Shown here piece after piece: positions 3,605 to 30,501 of a stretch of DNA of 64,000 nt. This DNA is from an uncultured Robinsoniella sp. (lineage in GTDB: Bacteria > Bacillota > Clostridia > Lachnospirales > Lachnospiraceae): the NCBI GenBank assembly GCA_965150505.1, contig CBCTVZ010000001.1:3488-67487 (forward strand), in the 5' to 3' direction. Under the pieces are notes generated by a model. It saw nothing but the letters and a program-made list of their open reading frames with translations. It searched no databases and had not been told where the DNA came from. The position numbers and the translations under genes were made by a program. How positions within the stretch are numbered: position 1 is the first letter of the stretch; each line of letters opens with the position of its first letter.

Positions 3605-5328
3605 TTATTATAGTAAGGATCGCTGTGTCCATGATAATTTTCATACATCTTATAAGAAAGTTTAAAATCTATTTCTGGAATATAAGAATCCCTGCTTTTT
3701 GATTCAAAATGATGCAGTTGTACATAAGGGTCATATACATTGACATATCCTCTGTTAATAGCACGAATGCAGATTTCAATATCACTTCCGCAGATAATAA
3801 ACTGCTCATCAAAATTTCCGATGGTCTCAATCGTCTCTCTTGAGATCGCCATACATGCCCCCGTCACGGCTGTCACATTTCGTGTTACCATTGGTGAGAT
3901 AAACGGTGATCCATAATGAACAGGTTTCATGCCCTTAAATACATGATCTGCCCATCCTCCCATACCAGAGACGACTCCGGCATGTTGGATTGTGCCATCC
4001 TCATAAAGCAGCAGCCCTCCAACGACTCCTGTACCCTTTCTCATCGCTTTTTCTGCTAATCTCTCCATCCAATCAGGCGTAATCACATCCATGTCGTTGT
4101 TCATAAAGATAAAGAGATCTCCCTTGGCCTGACGTATTCCAAAATTATTTAACTTTGACCAGTTAAATTCAAACAGTGCATCCACCACTCGTAGATTGGA
4201 ATATTTCTGTACTGCCTCTGCAAAATATCGTTTTGTTTCCTCTTCTTCTGAATTATTGTTTAAAATAATGATCTCATAATTCGGATACGTTGTTTTTTCT
4301 TCAATCGTGTCAATCACATTTCTCAGATAATCTGCATGGTCTTTTGTCGGCATGATAATGGAAACAAGTGGTTTCGTTTTCAGATGAAATCTGACATCAT
4401 ATACAAATAAAGAATCAGTCTCCTCTGCCGTGGCTGTCCCTTCTCCATAAAAACGGTCAAGATGACTTTGAATCGCCTTTAAGCCTGCCGTCTGCGCATA
4501 CGGTTTGGAATCTGGATTTGCGGCAGTAGAACTTGGAAGCGCTCTCCAATAATATAACACTTTGGCAATGTGTTCGATGTTCTGTGTCTGCTCTACAAGT
4601 CGAAGCATCAAATCATAATCCTGACTACCATTATATTCACTGCGAAATCCTCCAACTTTTTCAAATAAACTTTTGCGAAAACCAAGTAAATGTCCAATAT
4701 ACATCTGGCTTAAAAGCAAATCATACGACCAATCTGGCTTATGAAGCGGCTCTCTATGTTTTCCTTCCTCGTCAATGATATCCTGATCACTGTAAAGAAT
4801 ATCGGCATCTGTCTTTTTAATTCTCTTATAAAATTCATATAATGCACGCGGTGCAAGCTCATCGTCATTGTCCATTAAAACGAGGTATTCTCCTGATGCA
4901 AGGCGCGCCGCTGCGTTCGTGGCTTCAGAAATACCTCCGTTTTCTTTTTGAAACTGTATTTTAATTCTTTTGTCTTCAATTTCTTCCAAATACAGGCGAA
5001 CTTTTGGATCTGTGGAGCAGTCGTCTACGATACAAAGCTCCCAATTTTCATAATTCTGATGGCGAATAGATGAGATCGCCGCTTCAAGCCATTTGATTTC
5101 TACATTGTATACCGGCATTAAAATAGAAAAGCGAATATCGCCTGTACATTTCTGCGCCTCTTTTTCTTCTGGCTCATACGGATACAATTCATAATCTGCA
5201 CGATGTTTAAAATTCTCCATGAATCCCTTCGGTCCATGTTTTATAAAATATTTTATCCCCTTAAAAAATGTCTTTGGTTTTCTGACGCAAAGACTTGCCA
5301 TTGCAAAAATCTTTTTAATTTTCTGCAT
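3565..5328 (-). CDS. Two-domain GT2 glycosyltransferase (tandem GT-A folds), polymerising type
   Basis: There are two GT2 signatures. The first is FSILMPVYNVEIKWLEAAISSIRHQNYENWELCIVDDCSTD ... MDNDDEL. The second is VSIIMPTKDHADYLRNVIDTI...YEIIILNNNS ... MNNDMDV. Confidence 0.8.
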   Translation of the reverse strand: MQKIKKIFAMASLCVRKPKTFFKGIKYFIKHGPKGFMENFKHRADYELYPYEPEEKEAQKCTGDIRFSILMPVYNVEIKWLEAAISSIRHQNYENWELCIVDDCSTDPKVRLYLEEIEDKRIKIQFQKENGGISEATNAAARLASGEYLVLMDNDDELAPRALYEFYKRIKKTDADILYSDQDIIDEEGKHREPLHKPDWSYDLLLSQMYIGHLLGFRKSLFEKVGGFRSEYNGSQDYDLMLRLVEQTQNIEHIAKVLYYWRALPSSTAANPDSKPYAQTAGLKAIQSHLDRFYGEGTATAEETDSLFVYDVRFHLKTKPLVSIIMPTKDHADYLRNVIDTIEEKTTYPNYEIIILNNNSEEEETKRYFAEAVQKYSNLRVVDALFEFNWSKLNNFGIRQAKGDLFIFMNNDMDVITPDWMERLAEKAMRKGTGVVGGLLLYEDGTIQHAGVVSGMGGWADHVFKGMKPVHYGSPFISPMVTRNVTAVTGACMAISRETIETIGNFDEQFIICGSDIEICIRAINRGYVNVYDPYVQLHHFESKSRDSYIPEIDFKLSYKMYENYHGHSDPYYNKCLDMNSCVPRLK

Positions 5329-6610
5329 TCTCTATACTCCTTTTATACGTTACCGTCGAGTCCAGATCACAAAATCCGACAGTAGTTTTCTTTGACAGCA
5401 CTTGAATACAGCAGATATCATACAATCTGTGATAGACGACGAGCGTATCTCCTTCATATCCTGTACACCCAAGCGAAAGTAAATGCTGTCCTCCCTGCAG
5501 AACCATTTTCTGTGAAAATGCAATCTCTACTGTTTCTCCAGCCTCTATCTTCCCTGTATCCGTCTTTTCAATGATCGTATTTGTCCCTGCCAATTCATTT
5601 CCTTTTAAATCCTTGATACTGAACGCAAAAATCGGATTTTCGATCGTCTGATGAAATTTCACTCTCATCTTGATAGTAAACGGCTTCATTTTATAGATCG
5701 TATTGGAAATCTGATTCTCATGATCAAAAATTCCAAAACTTATGATCGTGGCGCGTTTATCCCCATAATCCTGATAGTTCGGATTTAAAAGCATATAATC
5801 AAGCCACGTTCCCTTCTGCACTTCCAAATTGCTCTGCGGCTTTTTTTCTTCTTGCTTTTCCTCTTCTGGCTCATCCTGACCTACCAAAATCTTCTTATAC
5901 AGATCCACCATCTCTTTTGTAGGGCCTTCTGCATATTTTTTTCCGTCGTTAATGATGATCGCTCTCTCACAGTATTTCATCACGCTTCCCATATCATGTG
6001 TCACAAACAATACTGTTTTTCCGCTGTTTTTTAAATCTTCCATCCGTTTATAACATTTTGCCTGAAAGAAGACATCCCCCACCGACAACGCTTCATCAAT
6101 GATTAAAATATCTGGATCTACGCTGATCGCCACAGCAAAGGCAAGGCGTGCAAACATTCCGCTGGAATACGTCTTTACTGGCTGTTTAATAAAATCTCCA
6201 ATATCAGCAAATTTTAAAATCTCTGGAAGCTTCTTCTCCATCTCTTCCTCAGAAAATCCCATCATCGTTCCGCTTAAATATGCGTTTTGAATCCCATTAT
6301 ATTCTGGATTAAATCCGGCTCCAAGCTCTAAAAGCGCTGAAATCTTTCCATTTATCGTCACTTCTCCCGATGTAGGCATCAAAACACCGGTGATAATTTT
6401 TAGAATTGTAGATTTTCCTGCCCCATTTTTTCCAATAATTCCCACCATTTCTCCTTTTTTCACTTCAAAGGAAACATGGTTCAGGGCATGAAATTCTTTG
6501 TGATAACTTTTTTTATGAATACTGAGTGCTTCTTTAAATCTCAACGTTGGCTTATCATAAAGACTGTACACTTTTGAGACATCAGAAACGGAAATTGCTA
6601 TATCACTCAT
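5315..6610 (-). CDS. wzt: Polysaccharide-export ABC ATP-binding protein (Wzt/TagH type) with a C-terminal glycan-binding-like extension
   Basis: Walker A GKNGAGKST, signature YSSGMFARL and Walker B ILIIDEA. An acidic linker (DEPEEEKQEEKK) is followed by a ~160-aa beta-rich C-terminal domain (nt 5315-5803), typical of Wzt_C. Confidence 0.8.
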   Translation of the reverse strand: MSDIAISVSDVSKVYSLYDKPTLRFKEALSIHKKSYHKEFHALNHVSFEVKKGEMVGIIGKNGAGKSTILKIITGVLMPTSGEVTINGKISALLELGAGFNPEYNGIQNAYLSGTMMGFSEEEMEKKLPEILKFADIGDFIKQPVKTYSSGMFARLAFAVAISVDPDILIIDEALSVGDVFFQAKCYKRMEDLKNSGKTVLFVTHDMGSVMKYCERAIIINDGKKYAEGPTKEMVDLYKKILVGQDEPEEEKQEEKKPQSNLEVQKGTWLDYMLLNPNYQDYGDKRATIISFGIFDHENQISNTIYKMKPFTIKMRVKFHQTIENPIFAFSIKDLKGNELAGTNTIIEKTDTGKIEAGETVEIAFSQKMVLQGGQHLLSLGCTGYEGDTLVVYHRLYDICCIQVLSKKTTVGFCDLDSTVTYKRSIENAEN

Positions 6611-6625
6611 CTATTTTCTCCTGTC

Positions 6626-7417
6626 TTATAATACATCTGCAAAATGCGGTTTTAACTTCTGGTATACCTTTCGGCTCACAACAAATAATAAAATGGTAAA
6701 TACCCAAAAATAAATTGTAATCTTCCATCGCTCAAAAAACCAAACATGCCCAATCATGGTGTCACGATATCCCTGAACAATATAAAACATCGGATTCAGC
6801 TTAAAAATCTGTTTTAACCAGCCTGGAAGCGGCATCGTCTCAAACTGCCACATAATCGGTGTCATCCAAACTCCAATCTGCATAATAATTCCTACAATCT
6901 GTGTTGTGTCGCGAAAAAATACGGCAATCGCTGAAGTTAGATAGCAGACAGCCAGAGACAGTAAAATCATTGCCGCTGAATAATAAAGCAGCTGAATCAC
7001 AATTATTCCTGGAAATAGTCCCATGATCGCATAGCAGACAAGAAGCAGAATCACAAAAAAGCCATGTACAAATAAAGACGACATAATTTTTACAATCGGA
7101 AGAATTTTAATCTCAAATTTTACTTTTTTGACAAGATAATTATATTCTAAAAAACAGTTTGTTCCATTAATTACGGATTCTGAAAAATAAAACCATGGAA
7201 TCAAACCTGCCATCAGCCAAAGCACAAACGGTATATTTTCTATATCTGAACTGCGAAATCCCAACTGAAAGACGAACCAGTACAATAAAATGGTAATCAA
7301 AGGCTGCACAAAAGCCCAGAAAATGCCGAAATAAGAACCGGCATATTTTGTCCGGAAATCATTTTTTGCAAGATATATCATTAATTTTTTATTCTTTTTC
7401 AAGGTTTCCATCGACAA
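6626..7417 (-). CDS. wzm: ABC-2 type polysaccharide export permease (Wzm/TagG type)
   Basis: N-terminal motif KNDFRTKYAGSYFGIFWAFVQPL, six predicted TM segments, and adjacency to wzt. Confidence 0.85.
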   Translation of the reverse strand: MSMETLKKNKKLMIYLAKNDFRTKYAGSYFGIFWAFVQPLITILLYWFVFQLGFRSSDIENIPFVLWLMAGLIPWFYFSESVINGTNCFLEYNYLVKKVKFEIKILPIVKIMSSLFVHGFFVILLLVCYAIMGLFPGIIVIQLLYYSAAMILLSLAVCYLTSAIAVFFRDTTQIVGIIMQIGVWMTPIMWQFETMPLPGWLKQIFKLNPMFYIVQGYRDTMIGHVWFFERWKITIYFWVFTILLFVVSRKVYQKLKPHFADVL

Positions 7418-8515: not shown

Positions 8516-8610
8516 TTCTCAACATCCTTTCTTTTTTTTACTCTTTTTTTAATCTTACACCATGTATACAATCCCGTCAAAGTTCTTTTCTATTTTTTAA
8601 TCAAATATTA

Positions 8611-8645
8611 AGAAGAGGCGGATTTACTCCAGCCTCTTCTTTTTC
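8611..8645. terminator. Hairpin just downstream of the 1776-aa gene, terminator-like
   Basis: Stem AGAAGAGGC (8611-8619) pairs with GCCTCTTCT (8632-8640). The T-run sits on the plus-strand side and an A-run on the other. For the minus-strand gene the trailing tract is only AT-rich. Confidence 0.35.
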
Positions 8646-8650
8646 ATTTC

Positions 8651-11600
8651 TTATTTCTTAATATATTTTTTATAAAACTTTGTATTTTTGATAAGAGGAA
8701 GCATTTTCTTTTTGATGCTGTGCGGTATCTTATCCTGTATTGTGCGGATTCCGCCTTTCATCTTCACAGCCACTGGTTCTTTGACTGGTTCAGCCAATTT
8801 TTCCCGAAGCCATGTAAGAGAACGCGCTCTTTCTCTCTGCATGATTGCATCGACAGCGTCATAGTCGATCTCATCGAGCAGACTCTCATCCTTCATAATC
8901 TGTGCCGCATTTGGAATAAAACGTTTCTGAAGTCCAAATACATCTGCCAAAGACAAGAAACGATCCAATCCTCTGTGTTTGTTATAGATACAGATAAATG
9001 GGCGATGGAAACGAATTGCAAAACTTGCTCCATGGCAGGAATCTGTGATCAAAAATTCACAGTTTTTCAGATAATACAACCATTCTTCCGTCTGTACGTC
9101 ATTTAAAATATGATCCATATTCATCTTTTTCTTATTTTTTTCAAATGTTCCCGGTATTCCATCCAAGATATGGATTAATTTTAAATTCTTTTTCTTTGCC
9201 ACATATTGAAGCGCTTCCCGTATTTCTGGAGTCGGATCTAAGATATAGGAAAGTAAGAATTTCTCTTTTTCCTGATAACAAGAATCTGCAATCAATTCTT
9301 CAAAGACACGGTCTTCTGGCAAGAAGACTGGGTCTAATACCTGTGTTCCCTCCATGCCAAATTCTTTTTTCAATACCGTGACAGCGCTCTTTTCACGGAC
9401 AGAGATTCCTGTAAATCTTCCAAGTAACTCAGAAACTTCTTTTCTCTTTTCTGGCGGTGTGAAAGAACGGTTATGACCAAAGGATGCCGCATAGGAGATT
9501 AATCGTTTTCCTTTTTCGGCAAAATCGAAATAGTAGCTATTGCCACACCACTGATTGACACCGTAATTCCATACCTGATCTGATCCGATAACAAACGTAT
9601 CACAGTTTTGATTCAATTTTCCTATTTCTTTTAAAGGATACATCGGACTGATTGCCTTATATCTCTCATATGCAAATCTTCTGGAATGTAAGAGCGGATG
9701 CGGTTTATCCTTCTCTGAGATTCTAGGTTTTTCAATCATCAAGACAGAATATCCCAACGATTCTATCGCACGGCAAAGGGAATAATATGTCATGACACTT
9801 CCATAATTTCCTCCCGGCCATACGCCATAGATTCCAACATCGTAGTGATCTGATGCCGTATCTGTGACTGCTTTTTGCATCGTAGTCTTTTGAATCAGAT
9901 CCATAAAACGATCTCTTTTTGGATTATACGTCTTAAACGGTTTTGCAAATGGCTGTCCATGTGTCAGAATATATTCAAATTTTGCCGGCTCACACAGATT
10001 CAGACGCACTTTAATCGTCTTTAACATTTCATCTGCTTTTTTATTGTTGACTACTAAAATAGACGTTCCTTTTCCGTCTGTATAATCTGGATTATATTTC
10101 TGTATTCCCCAGAAATCGGCCAATGTCATGTCTCCTTGTCTGGAAAGACGAGAATATTTACAGATCTGGCAATGCGGCCGCACAGACAGACATGGTAAAA
10201 ATGCCCGATAGAATAAATCCTGATCTCTCGTCTTTCGATACACTTTTCCATCCTCATACTTGACCGTCATCTCTGTTGACCATCCAAAATAATCTTTATC
10301 ACGGAATCCGACGTGTGTAATTTTATGACCGCCATGCACTTCCTTTAAATATTTCTGGAATACCATCGGTGAAGGTCCGCCATGACACATCAAATCAATC
10401 GTAAATAACTGATCATAATCACGGCCAAGATAACCATACAGCCCCGCTACTTGACATGGACATCCGCAAAATAAAGCAGGCTTTCCTGATTCTAACACTT
10501 TTTTGATCTCACGGTATGTCCGTTTTGACGTACTTTGCAGATACTTAGAACCGCGCAGTTTTGCAAGTCCTTCTTTCTCATAGACAACCGTATGTTCCAG
10601 ATGAAATTGTTCGTCAAAAGCAGCTCCGCACACTGCTCCGCCTTTTTCTAAGATATCTTCTGCCACGAGTGAAAAAATTCCTCCCGATGAACTGACATCT
10701 CTTACCGGCTCTTCTGTGTATGCGGCATAACATTTTGGAACTTTCCAGTTGACATCTCTTTCGTGCGCCGCCGGACATGCCTTTAAGCATTTGCCGCAGT
10801 GAATACATTTTTCTTCATCGATGACAGGATAAAAGAAGCCTTCTTGATCCTGAACCATTGTGATCGCATCGACAGGACAGCTGTTTTCACATGCTCCACA
10901 GCCACAGCACTGGCGTTTTGCAACCGCTCGGATATCATTTGGCTGTTTCTCGTCTTTTTTTAGAGATTCTCTCAGCCATTTTATAGAAAACTCTCTTTTT
11001 TCTTCTATGATCTGATCGATTCGCTCAAAATCCATCGGCTGAAGAATCGTTTCATTTCCGAGTAATTGTTCTGCTTTTTTTACATATCGCGTTTCCAGTC
11101 CAAACGTTTTGACTAATTCTTGGAAACGGACAATTCCTCTTTTTTCATTTCCAATCACAGCCATTGGTTTATGGAACAGTAATGAAAAGTTTGTGCCTTG
11201 ACAGGAATCGGTCAATACAAACTCACAATTTTTCATATAGTACAGCCATTCTTGCACCGATGCGTCTTCTATCACCGTTCCGATGGAATCATCGATTACT
11301 TTCTTTGTCTTCTTCCATCCTTGTCCATTTCCGTCAGACAGCAGAATGACCTTCCATCCCGTTTTCTTTTTGATCTCAGCTAACACTTCATTTAACTGCG
11401 GTGTCGGATCTAAGACATAAGAAACCATGAACTTTTCGGTTTCTTTCTTTTCTACTTTTTTGATCTGTTCTTCATAGATCGCAGGGTCAGCTAAAAAGAC
11501 AGGATCTAATACAACCTCTCCATTTAGATGGAACTCTTCTTTTAAAAGCTTTGCTCCTCCCTGTTCTCTCATGGCGATCTGATCAAACTGCTGCATCAGC

Positions 11601-13981
11601 TTTATAATATGCGTATACTTAGAAGGCGGAATAAAAGATCTTGGGTGAGCAAATGACGCTCCATATGCTACTTTTTTGCGCTCTTCTTTTACAAAATCAA
11701 AGTAAAATCCAAGACCGTATCCCTTTGCCACACCGTAATTCCACACCTGATTCGATCCAAGCAAAAAGGTCTCGCAGTGGTCATTTAATTTGCTCTGATT
11801 TACATAATCATATACTGGGCTGATTGCTTTATAATTTTGATAAGCAAATCTTCTGGAAGCGTTATACGATTCATTTTTCTGTACATAGCGCTCTTTGCCT
11901 TTTTCAATCATCAAAACATCATACCCGAAAGATTCCACTGTACGGCAAAGTGCATAATAAGTCAGCATACTTCCATAATTGCTGCTCATCCATGGACCAT
12001 AGATTCCAACGTCATATTTTTTCTCTGTGGCAAACTGCCATGACTCTTTTAATGTCTTTTTCGCAATCAAGTTTTTAAAATGTTCGCAGTCTGCTTTTGG
12101 AAGATCTCCCTCACTGCTGTTTTTGCAAATCGTATATTCTTCTTTTGCGAAATCTTCCCATTTCTGTGCCAAAACTTCTTCTTTACACTCGTCAAAAAGT
12201 CTTTCCCCATTCGTACCGTTTGTAATGATCCAGTTTCGATCTGTCAAAGTCGCTCCCGGCAAAATCCATCCCAGATTTCGCATCACCGTTCTTCGCGTCT
12301 TATATGGTGGCTCACCGTGACAAGCTACATTAGAATCTACAATCTTGAAAAAGAGATCCTCCTCTTTTTTTCTTTCATATTTTTTTCCGTCTTTATACAG
12401 AATCTGAATTGCCTTTTCCTCATCCACGTCAAAACGAATCTGTGAAATTTCTTTTTTGCCATGAACTTCTCTTATATACCGTTTCCAAATTTCAGACAAA
12501 CTATTTTCTTTTTCTAATACGGTCACAGCTGTCAGGTTTTCGTACACTTTTCCTAATTCCTGATACAATCTGTCTATTTGAGTCTGTGTTCCAAAGAATA
12601 AGACATTCTCTTTCTTTTCCAATGTCTCTTTGATCTGATTCCAGTCAAATTCCTGATCTGCCAAATATGCTGGAATCTTTAAGATCTCCTCTAGTTCACT
12701 GTCTATTTTCTGTTTTTGGATTTTAACAGACCAGTCTTCATCAAACGATGGCAGATAAACCGTTGTCCCCTTCTCCAGTTCTTTTTGAATCACTGTTTTT
12801 TTCAGCTGATCTAATTTCTGAATCGTATATCCGCTGCGCGCTGTCTTGTTGCTTTGTCCAATTTTTGAAATCGTCTCTTTTTTATAAGACAGAGCATTTT
12901 TCAGCCATTTCCATGAACGTTCCCGTTCAGAATCCATGATTTTTTGAATTTTATCATAGTCCATCGGTGTCAGAAGATGTTCTTCTTCCATAATTTTCTT
13001 CGGATCTAAGATATAACGATCTTCAATCTGAAACAGTTTTGTCAGACTTTCAAATCGATCTAAGCCACGCCCTCTGTTTCCAATACATACAAATGGTCTT
13101 TTAAAAACAAGTGCAAAACTTGCGCCATGACAAGAATCGGTGATGACAAATTGACTATGTTTTATATAATACAGCCAATCTTGTGTCTCCAGATTTTCCA
13201 CGACGTTGTCCAGATTTAATTTTTCTTTATTGCTCTCAAATTTCGACTGAATCCCATCCAGCATATTGATCAGCTTCAGATTCAATTTCTTTGCCGCATA
13301 CTGAAGCGCTTCTCTGATTTCTGGTGTCGGGTCTAAGATGTAGGAGACAAGATATTTTTCTTCTTCTTTGTGAGAAGATTCTTCTGTAATCTCGTCAAAA
13401 ATCTCAGGATCAGCAAGAAAGACTGGATCTAGCACACGCACGGCATCCACGCCAAATTCTTTTTTTAGAACGGAGACTGCTCCTGTCTCACGAACAGACA
13501 GAAAATCAAATCTTCGGAATAAATCTTCTATTTCCTGTGCTTCGTCATAAGGTGTAAAGGAAACTGCATGACCAAAGGAAGAGGCATAGGAAATCAGTCG
13601 CTTATCGTCATCTGCAAAATGAAGATAAAAGCTCTTTCCAAATCCTCTGCTGATTCCATAATTCCAGATCTGATCGCATCCCATCACAAATGTATCACAG
13701 CATTCGTTCAGTTTTTCCAGATCATAATAAGCAAAATCTTTTGTGACTGCCTCATAATGACGCTCTGCAAATCTGTCTGAATGGGTGAGCGGACGCTCTT
13801 CTTTTCCTTCCTGCTTCATTTCTGGGCTGATCAGCAAAGCAGAAAGCCCCAATGACGTAATACAGCGATACAGAGCATAATACGTGGCAATTCCGCCATA
13901 ATTTTCTCCCTTCCACACGCCATAGATTGCCGCATCAAACTTTTCTTGCTCTACATCCTTTGGGGTGATAAATCTACTCAT
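8651..13981 (-). CDS. 1776-aa multidomain protein. Domain order: pyruvyl transferase, unknown ~280-aa region, pyruvyl transferase, FrhB-like 4Fe-4S/flavin domain, pyruvyl transferase.
   Basis: The PS-pyruvyl-transferase pattern occurs three times, near aa 15, 653 and 1378: (Y)D(V/A)GIYG.W...NYG...TYY(A/S)L... (G)(C/S)(D/N)Q(I/V)WNYG ...SYILDPTP...ITDSC(H/Q)G. A ferredoxin-type CCGCGACENSCP...CIHCGKCLKACP followed by an FrhB-like region (GGIFSL..., GCPCQVAGL) lies at aa ~1018-1370. Confidence 0.8.
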   Translation of the reverse strand: MSRFITPKDVEQEKFDAAIYGVWKGENYGGIATYYALYRCITSLGLSALLISPEMKQEGKEERPLTHSDRFAERHYEAVTKDFAYYDLEKLNECCDTFVMGCDQIWNYGISRGFGKSFYLHFADDDKRLISYASSFGHAVSFTPYDEAQEIEDLFRRFDFLSVRETGAVSVLKKEFGVDAVRVLDPVFLADPEIFDEITEESSHKEEEKYLVSYILDPTPEIREALQYAAKKLNLKLINMLDGIQSKFESNKEKLNLDNVVENLETQDWLYYIKHSQFVITDSCHGASFALVFKRPFVCIGNRGRGLDRFESLTKLFQIEDRYILDPKKIMEEEHLLTPMDYDKIQKIMDSERERSWKWLKNALSYKKETISKIGQSNKTARSGYTIQKLDQLKKTVIQKELEKGTTVYLPSFDEDWSVKIQKQKIDSELEEILKIPAYLADQEFDWNQIKETLEKKENVLFFGTQTQIDRLYQELGKVYENLTAVTVLEKENSLSEIWKRYIREVHGKKEISQIRFDVDEEKAIQILYKDGKKYERKKEEDLFFKIVDSNVACHGEPPYKTRRTVMRNLGWILPGATLTDRNWIITNGTNGERLFDECKEEVLAQKWEDFAKEEYTICKNSSEGDLPKADCEHFKNLIAKKTLKESWQFATEKKYDVGIYGPWMSSNYGSMLTYYALCRTVESFGYDVLMIEKGKERYVQKNESYNASRRFAYQNYKAISPVYDYVNQSKLNDHCETFLLGSNQVWNYGVAKGYGLGFYFDFVKEERKKVAYGASFAHPRSFIPPSKYTHIIKLMQQFDQIAMREQGGAKLLKEEFHLNGEVVLDPVFLADPAIYEEQIKKVEKKETEKFMVSYVLDPTPQLNEVLAEIKKKTGWKVILLSDGNGQGWKKTKKVIDDSIGTVIEDASVQEWLYYMKNCEFVLTDSCQGTNFSLLFHKPMAVIGNEKRGIVRFQELVKTFGLETRYVKKAEQLLGNETILQPMDFERIDQIIEEKREFSIKWLRESLKKDEKQPNDIRAVAKRQCCGCGACENSCPVDAITMVQDQEGFFYPVIDEEKCIHCGKCLKACPAAHERDVNWKVPKCYAAYTEEPVRDVSSSGGIFSLVAEDILEKGGAVCGAAFDEQFHLEHTVVYEKEGLAKLRGSKYLQSTSKRTYREIKKVLESGKPALFCGCPCQVAGLYGYLGRDYDQLFTIDLMCHGGPSPMVFQKYLKEVHGGHKITHVGFRDKDYFGWSTEMTVKYEDGKVYRKTRDQDLFYRAFLPCLSVRPHCQICKYSRLSRQGDMTLADFWGIQKYNPDYTDGKGTSILVVNNKKADEMLKTIKVRLNLCEPAKFEYILTHGQPFAKPFKTYNPKRDRFMDLIQKTTMQKAVTDTASDHYDVGIYGVWPGGNYGSVMTYYSLCRAIESLGYSVLMIEKPRISEKDKPHPLLHSRRFAYERYKAISPMYPLKEIGKLNQNCDTFVIGSDQVWNYGVNQWCGNSYYFDFAEKGKRLISYAASFGHNRSFTPPEKRKEVSELLGRFTGISVREKSAVTVLKKEFGMEGTQVLDPVFLPEDRVFEELIADSCYQEKEKFLLSYILDPTPEIREALQYVAKKKNLKLIHILDGIPGTFEKNKKKMNMDHILNDVQTEEWLYYLKNCEFLITDSCHGASFAIRFHRPFICIYNKHRGLDRFLSLADVFGLQKRFIPNAAQIMKDESLLDEIDYDAVDAIMQRERARSLTWLREKLAEPVKEPVAVKMKGGIRTIQDKIPHSIKKKMLPLIKNTKFYKKYIKK

Positions 13982-13996
13982 ATTGCTTCCTCTCTT

Positions 13997-15094
13997 TTAT
14001 AATTCTTCATTTACAAGTGCCAGCGCTGCTTCAATTACTTTATCCATATCATAATATTTATAATTTCCAAGTCTTCCGCCAAAAATAACGTTGCTTTCTT
14101 TGTCAGCCAGCGCTCTGTATTTTTCAAACAGACTATTATTTTTCTCATCATTGATTGGATAATATGGCTCAATGCCCGGCTTCCACTCCGAAGAATATTC
14201 TCTTGAAATTACCGTTGTTTTCTGTTTGCCAAATTCAAAATGTTTATGTTCAATCACTCTTGTATAAGGCACTTCTCTGTCTGTATAGTTTACAACGGCA
14301 TTTCCCTGATAGTTTTCACAATCTAATTCTTCTGTCTCAAACCGTACGGTGCGGTACTGCAGCGTTCCAAGCTGATAATGATAAAATTCATCGATCATAC
14401 CTGTAAAAATCGTTTTTTCTGCGACATCCTGATTGTTCTGAATAAATTCAAAATAATCGGTATCCAGTTTCACATCGATACCATCCAGCATCTTTTCTAC
14501 GATTTTTGTATAGCCTCCTATCGGGATTCCCTGATAGCGGTCGTTAAAATAATTGTTGTCATAAGTAAAACGCAGCGGAAGACGCTTAATGATAAAGGAT
14601 GGCAATTCTGTACATGGTCTTCCCCACTGTTTTTCTGTATATCCTTTCACTAATTTTTCATACACATCTCTTCCCACAAGAGACAGCGCCTGCTCTTCCA
14701 GATTTTTTGGCTCTGTGATATTCAATTCTGCAATCTGCTCTGCAATTTTTGCCTTTGCTTCATCCGGTGTACGGATTCCCCATAATTTACTGAAAGTATT
14801 CATGTTAAAAGGCATATTGTATAATTCATCTTTGTAAATGGCAATCGGAGAATTGATATAGTTATTAAATTCTGCAAACTGATTAATATATTCCCAGACT
14901 TCTTTATTGCTAGTATGGAAAATATGAGCGCCGTAGCGGTGAACATTGATTCCATTTCTATTTTCGCAGTAAATATTTCCTCCAATATGATTTCGTTTAT
15001 CAATCACAAGACATTTTTTTCCTCTTTTTTTCGCTTCGTATGCGAATACGCTCCCAAACAATCCAGCGCCGACAATTAAATAATCGTATCTCAT
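13997..15094 (-). CDS. glf: UDP-galactopyranose mutase
   Basis: YDYLIVGAGLFGSVFAYEAKKRGKKCLVIDKRNHIGGN, HRYGAHIFHT and GRLGNYKYYDMD. The likely start is ATG 15094, after AGGAGG. Confidence 0.95.
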   Translation of the reverse strand: MRYDYLIVGAGLFGSVFAYEAKKRGKKCLVIDKRNHIGGNIYCENRNGINVHRYGAHIFHTSNKEVWEYINQFAEFNNYINSPIAIYKDELYNMPFNMNTFSKLWGIRTPDEAKAKIAEQIAELNITEPKNLEEQALSLVGRDVYEKLVKGYTEKQWGRPCTELPSFIIKRLPLRFTYDNNYFNDRYQGIPIGGYTKIVEKMLDGIDVKLDTDYFEFIQNNQDVAEKTIFTGMIDEFYHYQLGTLQYRTVRFETEELDCENYQGNAVVNYTDREVPYTRVIEHKHFEFGKQKTTVISREYSSEWKPGIEPYYPINDEKNNSLFEKYRALADKESNVIFGGRLGNYKYYDMDKVIEAALALVNEEL

Positions 15095-15113
15095 ACACAT
15101 CCTCCTATTCCTA

Positions 15114-17444
15114 CTACTTTTTACTGATTTTTCTTTTTATTTTATGCAGTACATTTTTCACAGGTTTGTGAACTCTTTTTACCTGCTGTTTCATTTCTTC
15201 CTGTTTTGGAATGACAACGTGATACGTCTGATCTGGTTTTTCTGTTATTCTGCTGTCTATTTTTTCATATGCAGTCAAATAATCGACTGACTTTGGCTGA
15301 AATAACATATCATGCAACCATTTTCTGCTTCGTTTTCTCTCTTCATTTAAAATTCTTCTGCTCTGCGTATAATCCATATGCTGTAATAACTCTCTTCTCT
15401 TTTCTAAATCCTTTGGATTCATCAGCATACGATCCCGCATCTGGAACAGATCCAAAAGAGAGTGAAAACGTGACAGCCCTCTTTGAGGGTTTCCAAAACA
15501 TACAAAATCTTTCTGAAACAAGATTGCAAAACTTGCGCCATGACAAGAATCTGTGATGACAAAGCTGCTGTTTTTCAGATAGAAAATCCAATCTTGTACC
15601 TCCAGATTTTCCACGACATTTTCAAGCCCTAACTGCTCTTTATTTCTCTCAAAGTTCCATGGCATTCCATCTACCATATTGATCACTTTTTTATTTAATA
15701 TTCGAGATGCAAACAAAATCGCTTCTCTCTTTTCTGGTGTTGGATCTAGAATATACGTCGCAATATAGTCTTTTTCTTTTTTTCGCTTTGACTCCTCTGC
15801 AATTTCATCAAAAATGCCAGGATGAACAGCAAAAACCGGATCTAATACATGCTCTGCTTTCAGACCGAATGTTTCATTGACAATGCGCACTCCGTCCGCT
15901 TCTCTTAAAGAAATTCCGTCAAAGCGTTCCAACAGTCCCTTTGTTGTTCCTATTTCTACCACAGGGGCAAAAAATGTTTCATGACCAAAAGAAGCAGCAT
16001 ACGCAATCTTCTTTTTCTCTTCTTCTACAAAGTCAAAAAAGAAACTGCGGCCAAAATTGGATGAAATTCCATAATTCCACACCTGATCTGAGCCAATCAC
16101 AAAACTGTCGCACTGTCTGTTTAAATCTTTCAAAGCCCAAATTGGCATAGACGGCGCAATATCACGATAATGGCTAAGAGAAAATCTTCTGGCATGATTA
16201 TCTCCAAGTTCTGGATCATTCTCCATCAATTTTGGTTTATCAATCATGAGTACCGATAGCCCAAAGGACTGAATCAGACGATAGAGCGAATAATATGTCA
16301 TCAAACTTCCATAATTGCATCCAAACCAAACGCCCATGATCCCCACATCATATTTCTTTTCCGAAGCATATACATATGCTTTTTGAAGTGAATTTTTAGA
16401 TGCCAGCTCATAGAAACGCTCTCTTTGAGGATTCTGTATCGCTTCATTTTTCAAAAGTTTTGTCTCTTGTTTTGCATAGTCAAGAGGCACTTCTCTTATT
16501 TTTTCCAGCTTCTCTTTTATATCTTCAAAGATCTTTTTTCCTTTTTCTGTGTTGACAAACACAGCGGAAACACCGGCATGGTGGGCAAACGTCTCATCAT
16601 ACCGCTCTATTCCCCAAAAGTCTGCTAATGTCAAGTCGGATACTCTCTTCCATGTGCGATAAGAACAAGTCTCACAGCATTTGCGAATATCCAGCCTTTC
16701 AAAATAAGCCTTTAACAAAATATCCTGATCTTTAGAGCGATGATATACACTTCCATCTTCAAATTCTGCCGCCATTGCCGAAAACCAGCCTGACACTTTT
16801 TTACTGCGGAAAGAAATCTTTTTGATTTTTTTCTCTTTTAAAATCTCTTTTTTATATTTTTCAAAAATACATGGGGAGCTGACACCCATACAGTCAAAAT
16901 CGACGGTAATCAAATGTTCTCTTTCCTTTGTACTGTTTAAAAGTCCTGCGGTCTGACACGGCGTTCCGCAAAATAATACTGTCCTTTTCTGCTCCAGATA
17001 CTTCCGAATCGTCTCATAGATGTGTTTCGTATCACTCTGTACATATTTCAATCCCTGAAGCTTCCAGATCTCTTCTTCTCTTTCAATGATCTGATGTTCA
17101 GCCTGAAATCGTTCATTCCATCCACATCCGCAGACAACTCCGCCCTCTTGTATTACTTTTTGGGCAAGGAGAGGGAAAATTCCTCCTGATGCGCTGTCTT
17201 CGCACGTTTTTTCTGGCGCGTACGCTGCATAAAGCTGTATTGGTTCTGACTCTGGAGTTAATCTCTGCAATGCTGGACAGACACTGAGACATTTTCCACA
17301 TTCTTTGCAAAGATTTTCATTGATATCTGGATAATAAAATCCCATTCCGTCTGATTTCATCATGATTGCTTTTTCAGCACAGCTGTCATAACAGCTTCCA
17401 CATCCAGTACATTCATTTTCTTTTAACTGCCTGATATTCTTCAT
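15114..17444 (-). CDS. Fusion of an FrhB-like (coenzyme F420 hydrogenase beta-like) 4Fe-4S domain and a polysaccharide pyruvyl transferase
   Basis: N-terminus CTGCGSCYDSCAEKAI...CKECGKCLSVCP, GGIFPLL and GTPCQTAGL. C-terminus YDVGIMGVWFGCNYGSLMTYYSLY, GSDQVWNYG, TYILDPTP and ITDSCHGASF. It is paralogous to the domains of the 1776-aa protein. Confidence 0.85.
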   Translation of the reverse strand: MKNIRQLKENECTGCGSCYDSCAEKAIMMKSDGMGFYYPDINENLCKECGKCLSVCPALQRLTPESEPIQLYAAYAPEKTCEDSASGGIFPLLAQKVIQEGGVVCGCGWNERFQAEHQIIEREEEIWKLQGLKYVQSDTKHIYETIRKYLEQKRTVLFCGTPCQTAGLLNSTKEREHLITVDFDCMGVSSPCIFEKYKKEILKEKKIKKISFRSKKVSGWFSAMAAEFEDGSVYHRSKDQDILLKAYFERLDIRKCCETCSYRTWKRVSDLTLADFWGIERYDETFAHHAGVSAVFVNTEKGKKIFEDIKEKLEKIREVPLDYAKQETKLLKNEAIQNPQRERFYELASKNSLQKAYVYASEKKYDVGIMGVWFGCNYGSLMTYYSLYRLIQSFGLSVLMIDKPKLMENDPELGDNHARRFSLSHYRDIAPSMPIWALKDLNRQCDSFVIGSDQVWNYGISSNFGRSFFFDFVEEEKKKIAYAASFGHETFFAPVVEIGTTKGLLERFDGISLREADGVRIVNETFGLKAEHVLDPVFAVHPGIFDEIAEESKRKKEKDYIATYILDPTPEKREAILFASRILNKKVINMVDGMPWNFERNKEQLGLENVVENLEVQDWIFYLKNSSFVITDSCHGASFAILFQKDFVCFGNPQRGLSRFHSLLDLFQMRDRMLMNPKDLEKRRELLQHMDYTQSRRILNEERKRSRKWLHDMLFQPKSVDYLTAYEKIDSRITEKPDQTYHVVIPKQEEMKQQVKRVHKPVKNVLHKIKRKISKK

Positions 17445-21204: not shown

Positions 21205-21214
21205 ATTTTTCACC

Positions 21215-21967
21215 CTATTTCTTTTCCTGTTCCAGTGCTTCCATGTAAGCGTCACAGACCGTATTGACCTCTCCTGCCATCATCTGCTCCCCTTTGTTGA
21301 TCCAGATTGCATGATCACACAGTTTTTTTACAGAATCAATATTGTGTGAAACATATAAAAGCGTTGTGCCTCCACCGAGCATTTGCGTCATACGCTGATT
21401 GCATTTTTTTCTAAAACGCGCATCTCCAACTGCCAAAATTTCATCCACCACTAAAATATCTGGGTTGACCATCGTAGCCACTGAAAATCCCAGTCTTGCT
21501 TTCATACCCGAAGAGAAATTTTTGATCGGAGAATCCAAAAACTGATGCAGATCTGCAAATTCTACAATTTCATCAAAATGCTCATCCATAAATTTCTTAG
21601 AATGTCCCAAAACAGTTCCATTCAGATAAATATTTTCTCGCGCAGTCAAATTCATGTCGAATCCTGCTCCCAGTTCAATCAGCGGTGCGATCTCTCCTCG
21701 TACAATCACTTCCCCTTTATATGGCTTCATGATTCCGCTGATCGCCTTTAATAAAGTGGACTTTCCTGAACCATTTGTTCCGATCAGTCCCCAAGCTTCC
21801 CCTTTTTTTATCTTTAAATTGATATTTTTCAGAGCTAAAAACTCCTGAAACATCAATTCTTTTTTCACCAGTTTAACAAAATATTCTTTTAAATTATCTA
21901 CTTTCTCACTCGCCAAATTAAAACGGATTGTGAGATCATTTACTTCAATGATATATTTTTCTTCCAT
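21215..21967 (-). CDS. Polysaccharide/teichoic-acid export ABC ATP-binding protein, short form without a C-terminal binding domain
   Basis: Walker A GTNGSGKST, signature FSSGMKARL and Walker B ILVVDEI. The likely start is MEEKY at 21967, after GGTGGA. The longer ORF-track start overlaps the permease gene. Confidence 0.85.
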   Translation of the reverse strand: MEEKYIIEVNDLTIRFNLASEKVDNLKEYFVKLVKKELMFQEFLALKNINLKIKKGEAWGLIGTNGSGKSTLLKAISGIMKPYKGEVIVRGEIAPLIELGAGFDMNLTARENIYLNGTVLGHSKKFMDEHFDEIVEFADLHQFLDSPIKNFSSGMKARLGFSVATMVNPDILVVDEILAVGDARFRKKCNQRMTQMLGGGTTLLYVSHNIDSVKKLCDHAIWINKGEQMMAGEVNTVCDAYMEALEQEKK

Positions 21968-21983
21968 ATTTCCACCATTCTCT

Positions 21984-30263: not shown

Positions 30264-30314
30264 AAGTACTCCTTTCCTTAAACTTTACTCCTGTTATTTT
30301 TAAGAATTTATTTC

Positions 30315-30343
30315 ATTATAAAGTATCCTTGTTTTTTTGTCAA
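30315..30343 (-). promoter_or_regulatory. Perfect-consensus sigma-A promoter of the amidase gene
   Basis: The minus strand reads TTGACA (30343-30338), a 17-nt spacer AAAAAACAAGGATACTT, then TATAAT (30320-30315). It lies ~50 nt upstream of the ATG at 30263. Confidence 0.65.
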
Positions 30344-30472
30344 TTTTTTGTAACAATTTTGTAATTTTTGTTTCTATTCATTACTTTTATTTTTCTTTTT
30401 TGCGTGATATTTTCTTTTTATCTGACAAGCATTGATAAAGTCTTAAGATTTTTTAAGAAGCTTTAAACTTAA

Positions 30473-30501
30473 TTGAAAATTTTTTTACTTTATAGTATAT
30501 T
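30473..30501 (+). promoter_or_regulatory. Candidate sigma-A promoter of the L,D-transpeptidase gene
   Basis: TTGAAA (30473-30478), a 17-nt spacer, then TATATT (30496-30501). It lies ~80 nt upstream of the ATG at 30582. Confidence 0.4.

What the first reader, a model, noticed from the sequence alone, without database searches (positions are those of the whole stretch)
8651..13981. 1776-aa single polypeptide fusing three pyruvyl-transferase domains, one FrhB-like Fe-S domain and an unknown module
Seen:
- One uninterrupted ORF contains the pyruvyl-transferase pattern (NYG...TYYxL, GSDQVWNYG, SYILDPTP, ITDSCHG) three times, at nt ~13939-12889, ~12019-10970 and ~9850-8730.
- A 2x[4Fe-4S]-type Cys cluster plus an FrhB-like region lies at ~10930-9870.
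- A fourth paralogous pyruvyl-transferase domain and a second FrhB-like domain sit in the gene at 15114-17444.

Known: these families usually occur as separate ~350-400-aa proteins, often as adjacent gene pairs in capsule loci. They add a single ketal-pyruvate from PEP.

Inference: either the polymer carries several distinct pyruvyl (or derived) substituents installed by an assembly-line-like enzyme, or some copies have diverged to a new activity or a scaffolding role. I do not recall a triple fusion of this kind being described.
Basis: partly seen in the sequence, partly recalled or inferred. Interest (0 to 1): 0.72.

Follow-up and report, generated by a model that had tools for sequence, protein, structure and literature searches.

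The report
Five-domain pyruvyltransferase–reductase fusion with degenerate copies
A gut Lachnospiraceae bacterium encodes a real 1776-residue enzyme for decorating a cell-wall sugar polymer, made of three pyruvyl-transferase domains and two iron-sulfur reductase-like domains; one reductase-like copy has lost all its cofactor sites and one transferase copy has changed its key residues, making it a rare elaboration of a very common but uncharacterised two-domain enzyme.

Summary
Window 8651-13981 (-) is one uninterrupted 1776-aa ORF with three PS_pyruv_trans domains (92-125 bits each), a 2x[4Fe-4S] domain and an FrhB-like domain. The same ORF, in the same gene order, occurs in four other assemblies, one of them polished with Polypolish.

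The "unknown module" (aa ~376-650) is a degenerate FrhB-like domain (hhalign 99.6%). It has lost the ferredoxin domain, all cluster cysteines and the SSGG motif. The architecture is therefore P1-F*-P2-Fer4-F-P3.

P2 carries ortholog-conserved substitutions at four residues that are invariant in all other copies compared, including D744N and H928Q. It is nevertheless under strong purifying selection (dN/dS 0.045).

Fusion of this TDSxHG pyruvyltransferase subfamily to an FrhB-like domain is common: 93 of the 150 nearest representative clusters have it. Three full transferase copies are rare: 2 clusters among those 150, which are the best-scoring of 1.84 billion representatives.

The gene sits in an ABC-transporter-type galactofuranose polysaccharide locus.

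My best mechanistic inference is unproven. The transferase adds enolpyruvate from PEP, and the FrhB-like flavo-Fe-S domain reduces it to a lactyl (1-carboxyethyl) ether, as MurA/MurB do. Klebsiella K22/K37/K66 genetics give correlative support.

Verdict: a new variant of a known kind, of moderate interest.

The parts
8651..13981 (-). Whole ORF, 1776 aa: P1-F*-P2-Fer4-F-P3 plus a basic C-terminal tail. No predicted transmembrane segment.
12857..13954 (-). P1 (aa 10-375): pyruvyltransferase domain that keeps all subfamily invariants (D103, H138, TDSCH285G, R305, R309).
   Evidence: Pfam 96.9 bits; invariants; groups with the N-terminal P of the P-F-p proteins
12032..12856 (-). It lacks the Fer4 domain, the 4 invariant core Cys, the SSGG-F motif and the DFWG motif.
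   Evidence: blastp to the F domain E=2e-17; hhalign 99.6%, E=1.5e-24, 246 columns; keeps 21 of 84 conserved columns; no Pfam hit; dN/dS 0.21
10928..12031 (-). P2 (aa 651-1018): divergent pyruvyltransferase domain with ortholog-conserved G666S, D744N, G778A, H928Q and S931N.
   Evidence: Pfam 92.4 bits; substitutions present in all 7 orthologs; dN/dS 0.045; GT-B fold
10727..10927 (-). 2x[4Fe-4S] ferredoxin-type domain: C1025/1028/1031/1035 and C1059/1062/1065/1069.
   Evidence: Fer4_7; all 8 Cys invariant in 51 homologues
9857..10726 (-). F (aa 1086-1375): intact FrhB-like core with the SSGGIF motif and invariant C1176 (GCPCQ), C1199, C1271 and C1274.
   Evidence: FrhB_FdhB_N and _C; invariants; PCQ motif aligns to the Fsr FrhB-like domain; dN/dS 0.017
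8756..9856 (-). P3 (aa 1376-1742): pyruvyltransferase domain that keeps all invariants; sister of P2.
   Evidence: Pfam 125.3 bits
8651..8755 (-). Basic C-terminal tail (14 K/R in the last 45 aa) plus stop codon. Putative membrane-surface anchor; that role is inferred.
   Evidence: similar tails in homologues
15114..17444 (-). Neighbouring F-P protein (776 aa): Fer4-FrhB-like-pyruvyltransferase. An ordinary member of a large fusion family.
   Evidence: AF2 pLDDT 91, pTM 0.84; FrhB/HCAR fold plus GT-B fold
13997..15100 (-). glf, UDP-galactopyranose mutase, lying between the two enzymes.
   Evidence: PF03275 at 287 bits
17543..21255 (-). Two GlfT2-like galactofuranosyltransferase genes (17543-19357 and 19378-21255).
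21215..22784 (-). ABC-2 permease plus ATPase (transporter pair 2).
5315..7417 (-). Wzm permease plus Wzt ATPase with a Wzt_C carbohydrate-binding domain (transporter pair 1).
24625..26049 (-). Bac_transf initiating phosphoglycosyl transferase, at the head of the locus.

Best explanation
SHOWN
- The gene encodes a soluble five-domain protein, P1-F*-P2-Fer4/F-P3. P is a pyruvyltransferase domain of the TDSxHG subfamily. F is an FrhB-like flavo-Fe-S domain preceded by a 2x[4Fe-4S] ferredoxin domain.
- P1, P3 and F keep every family invariant.
- F* has lost all cofactor ligands.
- P2 carries conserved D744N and H928Q changes, yet is as constrained as the intact copies.
- The protein is conserved in gene order across related Lachnospiraceae genomes. 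The locus holds glf, two GlfT2-like galactofuranosyltransferases, an initiating phosphoglycosyl transferase and two ABC-2 exporters.

INFERRED
1. The protein arose from a P-F-P ancestor by internal duplication of the F-P unit. The upstream copy (F*-P2) then lost its redox function and changed its transferase residues. It is kept as a structural or glycan-binding spacer.
2. The protein works on the cytoplasmic face of the membrane, held there by its basic C-terminal tail. Its substrate is an undecaprenyl-linked galactofuranose-containing polymer, modified before ABC export.
3. Chemistry: a P domain transfers the enolpyruvyl group of PEP to a sugar hydroxyl. The F domain takes low-potential electrons (ferredoxin or flavodoxin) through 2x[4Fe-4S], then its own [4Fe-4S], then flavin, and reduces the enol-ether C=C. 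The product is a 1-carboxyethyl (lactyl) ether. This is the MurA/MurB logic carried out with a different transferase and a different reductase. A P domain acting without the reductase could instead close the usual cyclic pyruvate ketal, so the polymer may carry both substituents.

My probabilities: architecture and pseudo-domain assignment about 0.9. Cytoplasmic decoration of a Galf polymer about 0.6. Lactyl-ether chemistry about 0.4. The confidence of 0.42 given for this explanation is set by the chemistry, its weakest link.
For: Architecture.

Loss of cofactor sites in F*: 0 of 8 Fer4 Cys and 0 of 4 core Cys retained, and 21 of 84 conserved columns kept.

P2 substitutions are present in all 7 orthologs. 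Gln at the His position is almost absent elsewhere in the subfamily.

Selection: dN/dS is P1 0.051, F* 0.21, P2 0.045, F 0.017 and P3 0.034.

Duplication scenario: P2 and P3 are sisters, and P1 groups with the N-terminal P of the P-F-p proteins. F* is closer to the protein's own F than to the neighbour's F.

Tight P-F coupling:
- 93 of 150 nearest representative clusters are fused to F.
- Both orders occur: F-P 137 and P-F 70 of 304 proteins.
- Separate adjacent gene pairs occur in Pseudobutyrivibrio, Desulfotalea and Bacteroides plasmid loci.
- The AF2 model of the F-P unit has pTM 0.84, which suggests a fixed inter-domain arrangement.

F domain fold: it matches FrhB subunits and also HCAR, an FrhB-fold chlorophyll reductase that acts on a non-F420 substrate.

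Lactyl-ether link:
- Pan et al. 2015 (PMC4616057) report that Klebsiella K22, K37 and K66, along with K8, have pyruvyltransferase genes but non-pyruvylated capsules.
- K22 and K37 alone carry a nitroreductase next to that transferase, and K66 alone carries a 'coenzyme F420 hydrogenase' next to its transferase.
- K22 capsule contains 4-O-[(S)-1-carboxyethyl]-GlcA, by the title of Parolis 1988 as cited in PMC3857182.

Context. No transmembrane segment and a basic tail.

Own knowledge, not tested here: BciB, another FrhB-family enzyme, reduces a vinyl C=C with ferredoxin. Clostridia are not known to make F420. Butyrivibrio fibrisolvens exopolysaccharides contain 1-carboxyethyl sugars.
Against: - No biochemical or structural-chemical datum exists for this glycan or for any F-P protein. 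Ten literature searches found no study of the pairing.
- The Klebsiella correlation is indirect. I could not verify the chemistry of the K66 capsule. K8 has a transferase without pyruvate, and none of the passages I retrieved lists a reductase for it.
- The protein has two intact P domains for one intact F domain, so a strict 1:1 two-step scheme does not account for all domains.
- Related proteins fuse P-F to acetyltransferase and SDR domains, so fusion may reflect co-localisation rather than consecutive steps.
- D->N and H->Q in P2 are predicted to be inactivating only by analogy. No sequence-level link to a solved pyruvyltransferase could be made.
- The NJ tree has no support values.
Confidence: 0.42

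Rival explanations
1. Plain multi-site ketal pyruvylation. All intact P domains form ordinary cyclic pyruvate ketals on different residues or positions of the polymer, for example 5,6-Pyr-Galf as in Klebsiella K12. The FrhB-like domain does something else, such as redox sensing or regulation or an unrelated reduction, and is fused only for co-localisation.
For: All characterised PF04230 members are ketal-pyruvyltransferases (established knowledge). All three domains score well above the Pfam cutoff. glf is adjacent, and 5,6-pyruvylated Galf is known in Klebsiella K12 (reference cited in PMC4616057). Other modification enzymes are also fused to P-F in Selenomonas-type proteins.
Against: It does not explain why 93 of 150 nearest clusters of this subfamily carry the reductase-like domain in one polypeptide, in both orders. 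It does not explain why F is the most constrained part of the protein (dN/dS 0.017). It does not explain why Klebsiella types with a transferase plus a reductase lack pyruvate ketals.
Confidence: 0.28
2. The FrhB-like domain carries out a different redox step coupled to pyruvylation. Examples: preparing the acceptor by reducing a keto-sugar intermediate, or transforming the installed pyruvyl group in another way. The product would be a substituent that is neither a simple ketal nor a lactyl ether.
For: The tight P-F coupling and the intact cofactor motifs require some redox chemistry linked to the transferase. The FrhB family acts on very diverse substrates: F420, sulfite reductase partners and chlorophyll derivatives.
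Against: I know of no precedent for such a substituent. K22/K37 point specifically to a 1-carboxyethyl ether.
Confidence: 0.17
3. Artefact: separate single- or two-domain genes were merged by misassembly or a sequencing frameshift.
For: The paralogous domains could in principle mislead an assembler. The finding comes from a single window.
Against: Paralogs are at most 80% identical at DNA level over at most 300 nt. ORFs of identical length occur in four other assemblies with conserved gene order, including a 907-kb Polypolish-polished contig. There are six ortholog clusters at 71-98% identity. Every domain is under purifying selection.
Confidence: 0.02

Closest known systems
Polysaccharide ketal-pyruvyltransferases (Pfam PF04230: CsaB, WcaK, EpsO, GumL, ExoV, Pvg1p)
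   Same: All three P domains and the neighbour's P domain pass the Pfam model at 92-125 bits. They have a GT-B-type fold. They occur in a polysaccharide locus.
   Different: This is a distinct TDSxHG subfamily. I believe the canonical family motif reads RLH at that position, but that is from memory. The CsaB equivalog model scores only 48.8 bits against a cutoff of 213. There is no sequence-level hit to any solved structure. The domains are habitually fused to an FrhB-like domain. P2 lacks two invariant polar residues.
Fer4-FrhB-like-pyruvyltransferase (F-P) and P-F fusion proteins of Lachnospiraceae, Selenomonas, Bacteroidota and others. NCBI names them 'polysaccharide pyruvyl transferase family protein' or 'Coenzyme F420 hydrogenase/dehydrogenase beta subunit C-terminal domain', e.g. 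Blautia massiliensis WP_412225166.1.
   Same: The same two domains in the same subfamilies. The neighbour gene is a plain member. The large protein contains one intact and one degenerate copy of this unit.
   Different: Those proteins are about 730-1060 aa with one or two P domains. Only the ortholog group of this gene has P-f-P-F-P (6 of 304 proteins surveyed). I found no functional study of the family in the literature available to me.
FrhB family flavo-Fe-S proteins: FrhB, FpoF, the Fsr N-terminal half, HCAR and BciB
   Same: Pfam FrhB_FdhB_N and _C hits. Foldseek matches to 8rja_E, 6qii_B, 7npa and 5dqr at E 3e-14 to 2e-10. A conserved PCQ cysteine motif. An N-terminal 2x[4Fe-4S] domain as in FpoF and Fsr.
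   Different: The organism is a Clostridium-class anaerobe not expected to make F420 (own knowledge), so the substrate pocket probably binds something else, as in HCAR and BciB. The domain is covalently linked to a transferase.
MurA/MurB (enolpyruvyl transfer followed by flavin-dependent reduction to the lactyl ether of MurNAc)
   Same: The proposed reaction logic only: PEP-derived enolpyruvyl ether, then a two-electron reduction to a 1-carboxyethyl ether.
   Different: There is no homology. MurA has an EPSP-synthase-like fold and MurB is an NADPH-dependent FAD enzyme. Here the pair is a GT-B-type transferase and a ferredoxin-type Fe-S flavoprotein. The substrate would be a polymer, not UDP-GlcNAc. 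This is a statement of what it works like, not of membership.
Klebsiella cps gene pairs: K66 (pyruvyltransferase wcqF plus 'coenzyme F420 hydrogenase' HG203) and K22/K37 (pyruvyltransferase wclZ plus nitroreductase HG127)
   Same: A pyruvyltransferase homologue paired with a flavoreductase in a capsule locus whose product is reported as non-pyruvylated. K22 contains a 1-carboxyethyl ether.
   Different: These are separate genes in a Wzx/Wzy pathway in Gram-negative bacteria. I did not have the sequences, so homology to this subfamily is untested. K66 chemistry is unverified.

Membership tests
PS_pyruv_trans (PF04230) | Profile score above the curated gathering threshold for each copy | tested here: met
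   P1 96.9, P2 92.4, P3 125.3 and neighbour 93.2 bits against a cutoff of 25.3
PS_pyruv_trans (PF04230) | GT-B-like two-Rossmann fold | tested here: met
   AF2 models of the neighbour's P domain and of P2 match GT-B enzymes (UDP-GlcNAc 2-epimerases, WaaA, TagF) at E 1e-8 to 1e-5. Solved pyruvyltransferases did not appear in the top 50.
PS_pyruv_trans (PF04230) | Retention of the subfamily-invariant polar residues (Asp of GSDQ, His of TDSxHG, SFGH, the Arg pair) | tested here: met
   Met for P1, P3 and the neighbour's P. NOT met for P2: D744N, H928Q and G778A in all 7 orthologs.
PS_pyruv_trans (PF04230) | PEP-dependent transfer forming a cyclic pyruvate ketal | not testable with these tools
   Needs an enzyme assay or glycan NMR
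CsaB equivalog (TIGR03609) | Score above the equivalog cutoff | tested here: not met
   48.8 bits against a cutoff of 213.1
FrhB/FdhB family (PF04422 + PF04432) | Profile hits to both the N and C halves | tested here: met
   F domain: FrhB_FdhB_C 68.2 bits and FrhB_FdhB_N 32.9 bits. The F* module has no Pfam hit and is linked only through its paralog (hhalign 99.6%).
FrhB/FdhB family (PF04422 + PF04432) | FrhB fold | tested here: met
   The neighbour's F domain model matches FrhB-like chains and HCAR at E 3e-14 to 2e-9. For F* the fold search was uninformative.
FrhB/FdhB family (PF04422 + PF04432) | Four Cys ligands for the [4Fe-4S] cluster and the flavin-site motif | tested here: met
   F: C1176, C1199, C1271, C1274 and SSGGIF are invariant in 51 homologues. 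F*: all are absent. That these residues are the ligands is inferred from conservation and the Fsr alignment.
FrhB/FdhB family (PF04422 + PF04432) | Use of coenzyme F420 | not testable with these tools
   Only a 64-kb window is available. F420 biosynthesis is not expected in Lachnospiraceae (own knowledge).
2x[4Fe-4S] bacterial ferredoxin domain (PF12838) | Two CxxCxxCxxxC(P) motifs | tested here: met
   C1025/1028/1031/1035 and C1059/1062/1065/1069
ABC-transporter-dependent glycopolymer pathway | Wzm/Wzt-type ABC-2 exporter, a polyprenyl-phosphate initiating transferase and cytoplasmic polymerising glycosyltransferases in one locus | tested here: met
   Two ABC-2 permease/ATPase pairs (one with Wzt_C), Bac_transf, two GlfT2-like genes and GT2s. 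I did not search systematically for Wzx/Wzy.
MurA/MurB lactyl-ether pathway | Homology to MurA (EPSP-synthase fold) and MurB (FAD/NADPH enzyme) | tested here: not met
   No such Pfam or NCBIfam hits. The analogy is mechanistic only.

The most novel reading that the evidence does not exclude
The TDSxHG pyruvyltransferase plus FrhB-like pair is a widespread, uncharacterised, ferredoxin-dependent 'lactyl-ether synthase' for bacterial polysaccharides. It would be the missing biosynthetic route to 1-carboxyethyl sugars outside peptidoglycan. This 1776-aa protein would be a polymer-specialised version of it. In it, a catalytically silenced F*-P2 unit, kept under purifying selection, would act as a glycan-binding spacer or ruler. 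That spacer would position two active transferase domains and one reductase on a galactofuranan, so that lactyl ethers and pyruvate ketals are installed in a defined pattern.
Probability: 0.3. Interest if true: 0.75.

Novelty: new variant of a known kind. Interest (0 to 1): 0.5.

Why it matters
Pyruvate ketals and lactyl ethers give bacterial surface glycans their negative charge. They are ligands for SLH-domain proteins, lectins, antibodies and phages.

I found no study of the FrhB-like partner of pyruvyltransferases, although it is annotated in thousands of genomes of abundant gut anaerobes such as Blautia, Ruminococcus and Bacteroides. If the pair makes lactyl ethers, that would assign a function to a large family. 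It would also explain the 'pyruvyltransferase without pyruvate' capsule types of Klebsiella, and it would allow acidic substituents on gut-commensal cell-wall glycans to be predicted from sequence.

The specific protein adds a clean natural example of pseudo-enzyme domains kept inside a multidomain glycan-modifying enzyme. Taken alone, without the chemistry, it is an unusual but unsurprising elaboration of a common fusion.

Tried and rejected
1. Sequence search of the whole protein and of a 4-copy P-domain profile against PDB. Only ferredoxin and FrhB-like hits came back, and no solved pyruvyltransferase. Catalytic residues therefore could not be mapped onto Pvg1p or CsaB, and I used subfamily invariants instead.
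2. Pfam scan of the unknown module alone: no significant family. It was solved by comparison with its paralog.
3. Alignment A3 (X-P2 plus full-length orthologs plus the F-P family). The F-P rows aligned to the wrong repeat, so I discarded it and replaced it with A4.
4. Foldseek on the X-P2 model. The top 50 were all GT-B hits from P2, so it gave no independent fold confirmation for X.
5. Ten literature searches for FrhB/F420-hydrogenase plus pyruvyltransferase, lactyl-ether biosynthesis, K66 chemistry and Butyrivibrio carboxyethyl sugars. Only the Klebsiella cps survey was relevant. K66 capsule chemistry could not be verified.
6. An apparent replacement of GlfT2-like A in related loci turned out to be an artefact of my hit-picking rule. 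Both genes are conserved at 90-95%.
7. Assembly collapse or frameshift: rejected.
8. A membrane protein: rejected. No hydrophobic segment.
Full report
OBSERVATION

Window 8651..13981 on the minus strand is a single ATG-initiated ORF of 1776 aa with no internal stop.

Pfam finds PS_pyruv_trans (PF04230) three times, Fer4_7 at aa 1024-1071, FrhB_FdhB_N at aa 1085-1150 and FrhB_FdhB_C at aa 1170-1326. Scored separately, the three transferase segments give 96.9, 92.4 and 125.3 bits against a gathering cutoff of 25.3.

The neighbouring gene 15114..17444 (-) is a 776-aa Fer4-FrhB-like-PS_pyruv_trans protein. UDP-galactopyranose mutase (glf, 13997..15100) lies between the two.

IS THE ORF REAL?

- The paralogous domains are old. 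They are 39-53% identical as protein. At DNA level they are only 62-80% identical over at most 300 nt. Collapse of near-identical repeats is not a concern.
- Six ortholog clusters of 1776-1795 aa at 71-98% identity exist. One is named by NCBI in a Robinsoniella sp. MAG.
- Three GTDB genomes (two Clostridiales/Eubacteriales MAGs and the Robinsoniella MAG) carry uninterrupted ORFs of 1776, 1776 and 1792 aa. All the locus genes I compared, from the initiating transferase to the methyltransferase, are in the same order.
- The 98%-identical copy lies on a 907-kb contig labelled 'polypolish'. That this means a short-read-polished long-read assembly is my reading of the name.

THE 'UNKNOWN MODULE' IS A DEAD FrhB-LIKE DOMAIN

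- The neighbour's FrhB-like region aligns across the unknown module.
- The protein's own F domain hits the module at 28.7% identity, E = 2e-17.
- A profile of the module from seven orthologs matches a 51-sequence F-domain profile with hhalign probability 99.6%, E = 1.5e-24, over 246 columns spanning the whole FrhB core. Pfam itself sees nothing there.
- Of 84 columns conserved at 90% or more in F domains, the module keeps 21. It lacks the whole 2x[4Fe-4S] domain (8 Cys), the four invariant core cysteines (C1176 in GCPCQ, C1199, C1271, C1274), the SSGG-F motif, K1146/Y1147, D1196 and DFWG.

It therefore cannot bind the cofactors that define the family. I call it F*.

P2 IS A CONSERVED BUT ALTERED TRANSFERASE

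I aligned 72 full-scoring P domains. P1, P3 and the neighbour's P keep every column that is at least 92% conserved. P2 differs in all seven orthologs at residues that are 100% invariant in the other 65 domains:
- G666S, in WxGxNYG.
- D744N, GSDQ to GSNQ.
- G778A, SFGH to SFAH.
- H928Q, TDSCHG to TDSCQG.

It also carries S931N, at a column that is 92% conserved. Among the 150 closest representative clusters the motif is TDSxHG almost without exception. Acid-to-amide and His-to-Gln replacements at invariant polar positions are typical of inactivated or re-purposed enzymes. That reading is by analogy, because no solved pyruvyltransferase could be aligned at sequence level.

P2 is not decaying. 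For window versus L001, dN/dS is 0.045 for P2, against 0.051 for P1, 0.034 for P3, 0.017 for F and 0.21 for F*. Both degenerate parts are therefore retained by selection, with F* under relaxed constraint.

HOW UNUSUAL IS THE ARCHITECTURE?

- The F-P fusion of the neighbour is very common. There are 683 relatives at E <= 1e-20 among the candidates scored. Some clusters have more than 1000 members, and named examples occur in Blautia massiliensis, Ruminococcus and Porcipelethomonas.
- A phmmer search with P3 against 1.84 billion representative proteins gave 20,545 hits at E <= 1e-3.
- Of the best 150 of those hits, 93 carry a fused FrhB-like domain.
- Among 304 proteins collected, the architectures are F-P 137, P-F 70, P alone 53, P-F-p (degenerate C-terminal P) 21, P-f-P-F-P 6, P-P-F 3, P-F-P 2, P-P 2 and P-P-P 1.
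- Only two representative clusters have three full P domains: the ortholog group of this gene, and P0169, a 1118-aa P-P-P protein without F.
- The same pairing occurs as separate adjacent genes in a Pseudobutyrivibrio xylanivorans EPS plasmid locus (two pairs). FrhB-like and pyruvyltransferase genes also share a Desulfotalea psychrophila Wzx/Wzy-type locus.

The five-domain form is rare.

ORIGIN (TENTATIVE)

In a neighbour-joining tree without support values, P2 and P3 are sisters. P1 groups with the N-terminal P of the Blautia-type P-F-p proteins, and the neighbour's P lies in the F-P clade. F* is closer to the protein's own F than to the neighbour's. This fits a P-F-P ancestor in which the F-P unit was duplicated internally and the upstream copy degenerated. 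In the Blautia-type proteins it is the C-terminal P that has degenerated, so loss of one P copy seems to recur.

STRUCTURE

AlphaFold2 on the neighbour with 82 homologues gave pLDDT 91.1 and pTM 0.84. The N-terminal half matches FrhB-like subunits of F420-dependent enzymes, Fsr and the chlorophyll reductase HCAR (E 3e-14 to 2e-9). The C-terminal half matches GT-B enzymes.

The F*-P2 model had pLDDT 82.4 and pTM 0.78. Its low-confidence loops lie in the C-terminal part of the F* region. The fold search on that model was dominated by P2 and said nothing about F*.

CONTEXT

The gene sits in a minus-strand locus. In order, the locus holds:
- a Bac_transf initiating transferase;
- GT2 glycosyltransferases;
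- an ABC-2 permease/ATPase pair;
- two GlfT2-like galactofuranosyltransferases;
- the F-P gene, glf and the large gene;
- a GtrB-like GT2;
- a Wzm/Wzt pair whose Wzt has the C-terminal carbohydrate-binding domain;
- a double GT2, a WsaF-like glycosyltransferase and a methyltransferase.

Proteins with cell-wall-binding repeats flank it. Housekeeping genes (cdaA, mreB, uvrA and uvrB homologues) lie further along the window.

The protein has no hydrophobic segment, and 14 of its last 45 residues are Lys or Arg. Similar tails occur in homologues. I infer a cytoplasmic enzyme held at the membrane surface, acting on a lipid-linked Galf-containing polymer before ABC export.

MECHANISM

Shown: intact transferase domains, and an intact Fe-S/flavin-type reductase domain that is the most constrained part of the protein.

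Inferred: the transferase makes an enolpyruvyl ether from PEP. The F domain is fed by ferredoxin through its three clusters and reduces that ether to a 1-carboxyethyl (lactyl) ether.

Support is correlative:
- In the Klebsiella cps survey (PMC4616057), four capsule types have a pyruvyltransferase gene but no pyruvate: K8, K22, K37 and K66.
- K22 and K37 uniquely pair the transferase with a nitroreductase. K66 uniquely pairs it with a 'coenzyme F420 hydrogenase'.
- K22 capsule contains 4-O-[(S)-1-carboxyethyl]-glucuronic acid (title cited in PMC3857182).

From my own knowledge, untested here: the FrhB-family enzyme BciB reduces a vinyl C=C with ferredoxin. Clostridia do not make F420. Butyrivibrio exopolysaccharides contain carboxyethyl sugars.

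Against:
- There is no direct chemistry for any member.
- K66 chemistry is unverified.
- There are two intact P domains for one intact F domain.
- P-F is also fused to unrelated modification enzymes.

I put the lactyl-ether reading at about 0.4, plain ketal pyruvylation with an accessory redox domain at about 0.3, and other coupled redox chemistry at about 0.15-0.2.

COMPARISON AND NOVELTY

The domains are bona fide members of PF04230 and of the FrhB/FdhB family by profile and fold. The protein is not a CsaB equivalog (48.8 versus 213 bits). It is not related to MurA/MurB, which it may only resemble in logic.

The five-domain architecture with one dead reductase-like copy and one altered transferase copy is a new variant of a known, very common but functionally unstudied fusion. 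It is already present in public databases under generic names. The broader point is the tight, unexplained coupling of this transferase subfamily to an FrhB-like reductase. That coupling is the more interesting lead, and it is directly testable.

Noticed in passing
window 1344-26049 (-): The locus holds two complete ABC-2 exporter pairs (21215-22784 and 5315-7417). The second has a Wzt with a C-terminal carbohydrate-binding domain, and a SAM methyltransferase sits at the distal end (1344-2255). This suggests two polymers, or chain-length control by a terminal methyl cap as in the O9a and S-layer glycan systems.
   Followed up: partly
window 7577-8515 (-) and 61535-63979 (-): A GtrB/CsbB-like GT2 with a hydrophobic C-terminus lies immediately downstream of the large gene. 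A YfhO-family membrane protein lies 53 kb away. Together they resemble the CsbB/YfhO pair used for extracytoplasmic glycosylation of teichoic acids.
   Followed up: no
P0048, P0051-P0055 (hits): Pyruvyltransferase domains of the same subfamily are fused to thiamine-diphosphate enzyme domains (PF02776/PF02775) instead of, or as well as, FrhB-like domains. This is another unexplained pairing of the transferase with an enzyme of 2-oxo-acid chemistry.
   Followed up: no
P0030-P0047: Selenomonas-type megaproteins of 1400-2160 aa combine P-Fer4-F with hexapeptide acyltransferase, NAD-epimerase and two short-chain dehydrogenase domains. Polysaccharide-modification 'megasynthases' seem to be common in these anaerobes.
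   Followed up: no
P0007-P0024; L004 9962-14351: The Blautia-type 1060-aa proteins are P-Fer4-F-p with a strongly degenerate C-terminal P (12-72 bits against about 500). In L004 such a gene is followed by a separate 400-aa ORF matched by the query (probably a stand-alone transferase) and then glf. Loss of one transferase copy recurs, and so does linkage to glf.
   Followed up: partly
P0169: A 1118-aa protein made of three full pyruvyltransferase domains and nothing else. It is the only other triple-P architecture among the best 150 hits from 1.84 billion representatives.
   Followed up: partly
window 8651-17444 versus L001: The large gene (89% identity) and the F-P gene (92%) are among the faster-evolving genes of the locus; most of the others are 94-98% identical, though a few glycosyltransferase genes are 84-92%. 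Within the large gene this is driven by the F* module (71%).
   Followed up: yes
cluster of P0089: A 90%-identity cluster of an F-P protein from Blautia massiliensis also lists a 274-aa 'UDP-galactopyranose mutase' and a 70-aa ferredoxin fragment as members. This is probably fragmentary gene calls or a fusion of adjacent genes, and it again links F-P with glf.
   Followed up: no
window 28062-32657: An N-acetylmuramoyl-L-alanine amidase (minus strand) and an L,D-transpeptidase (plus strand), both with choline-binding-type cell-wall repeats, are transcribed divergently right next to the glycan locus. The polymer made here may be their wall anchor.
   Followed up: no
L006 (Pseudobutyrivibrio xylanivorans pNP95) 7966-9019: The pyruvyltransferase next to the FrhB-like gene is annotated as two overlapping short CDSs (450 and 660 nt). 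This looks like a frameshifted or split gene on this rumen plasmid.
   Followed up: no
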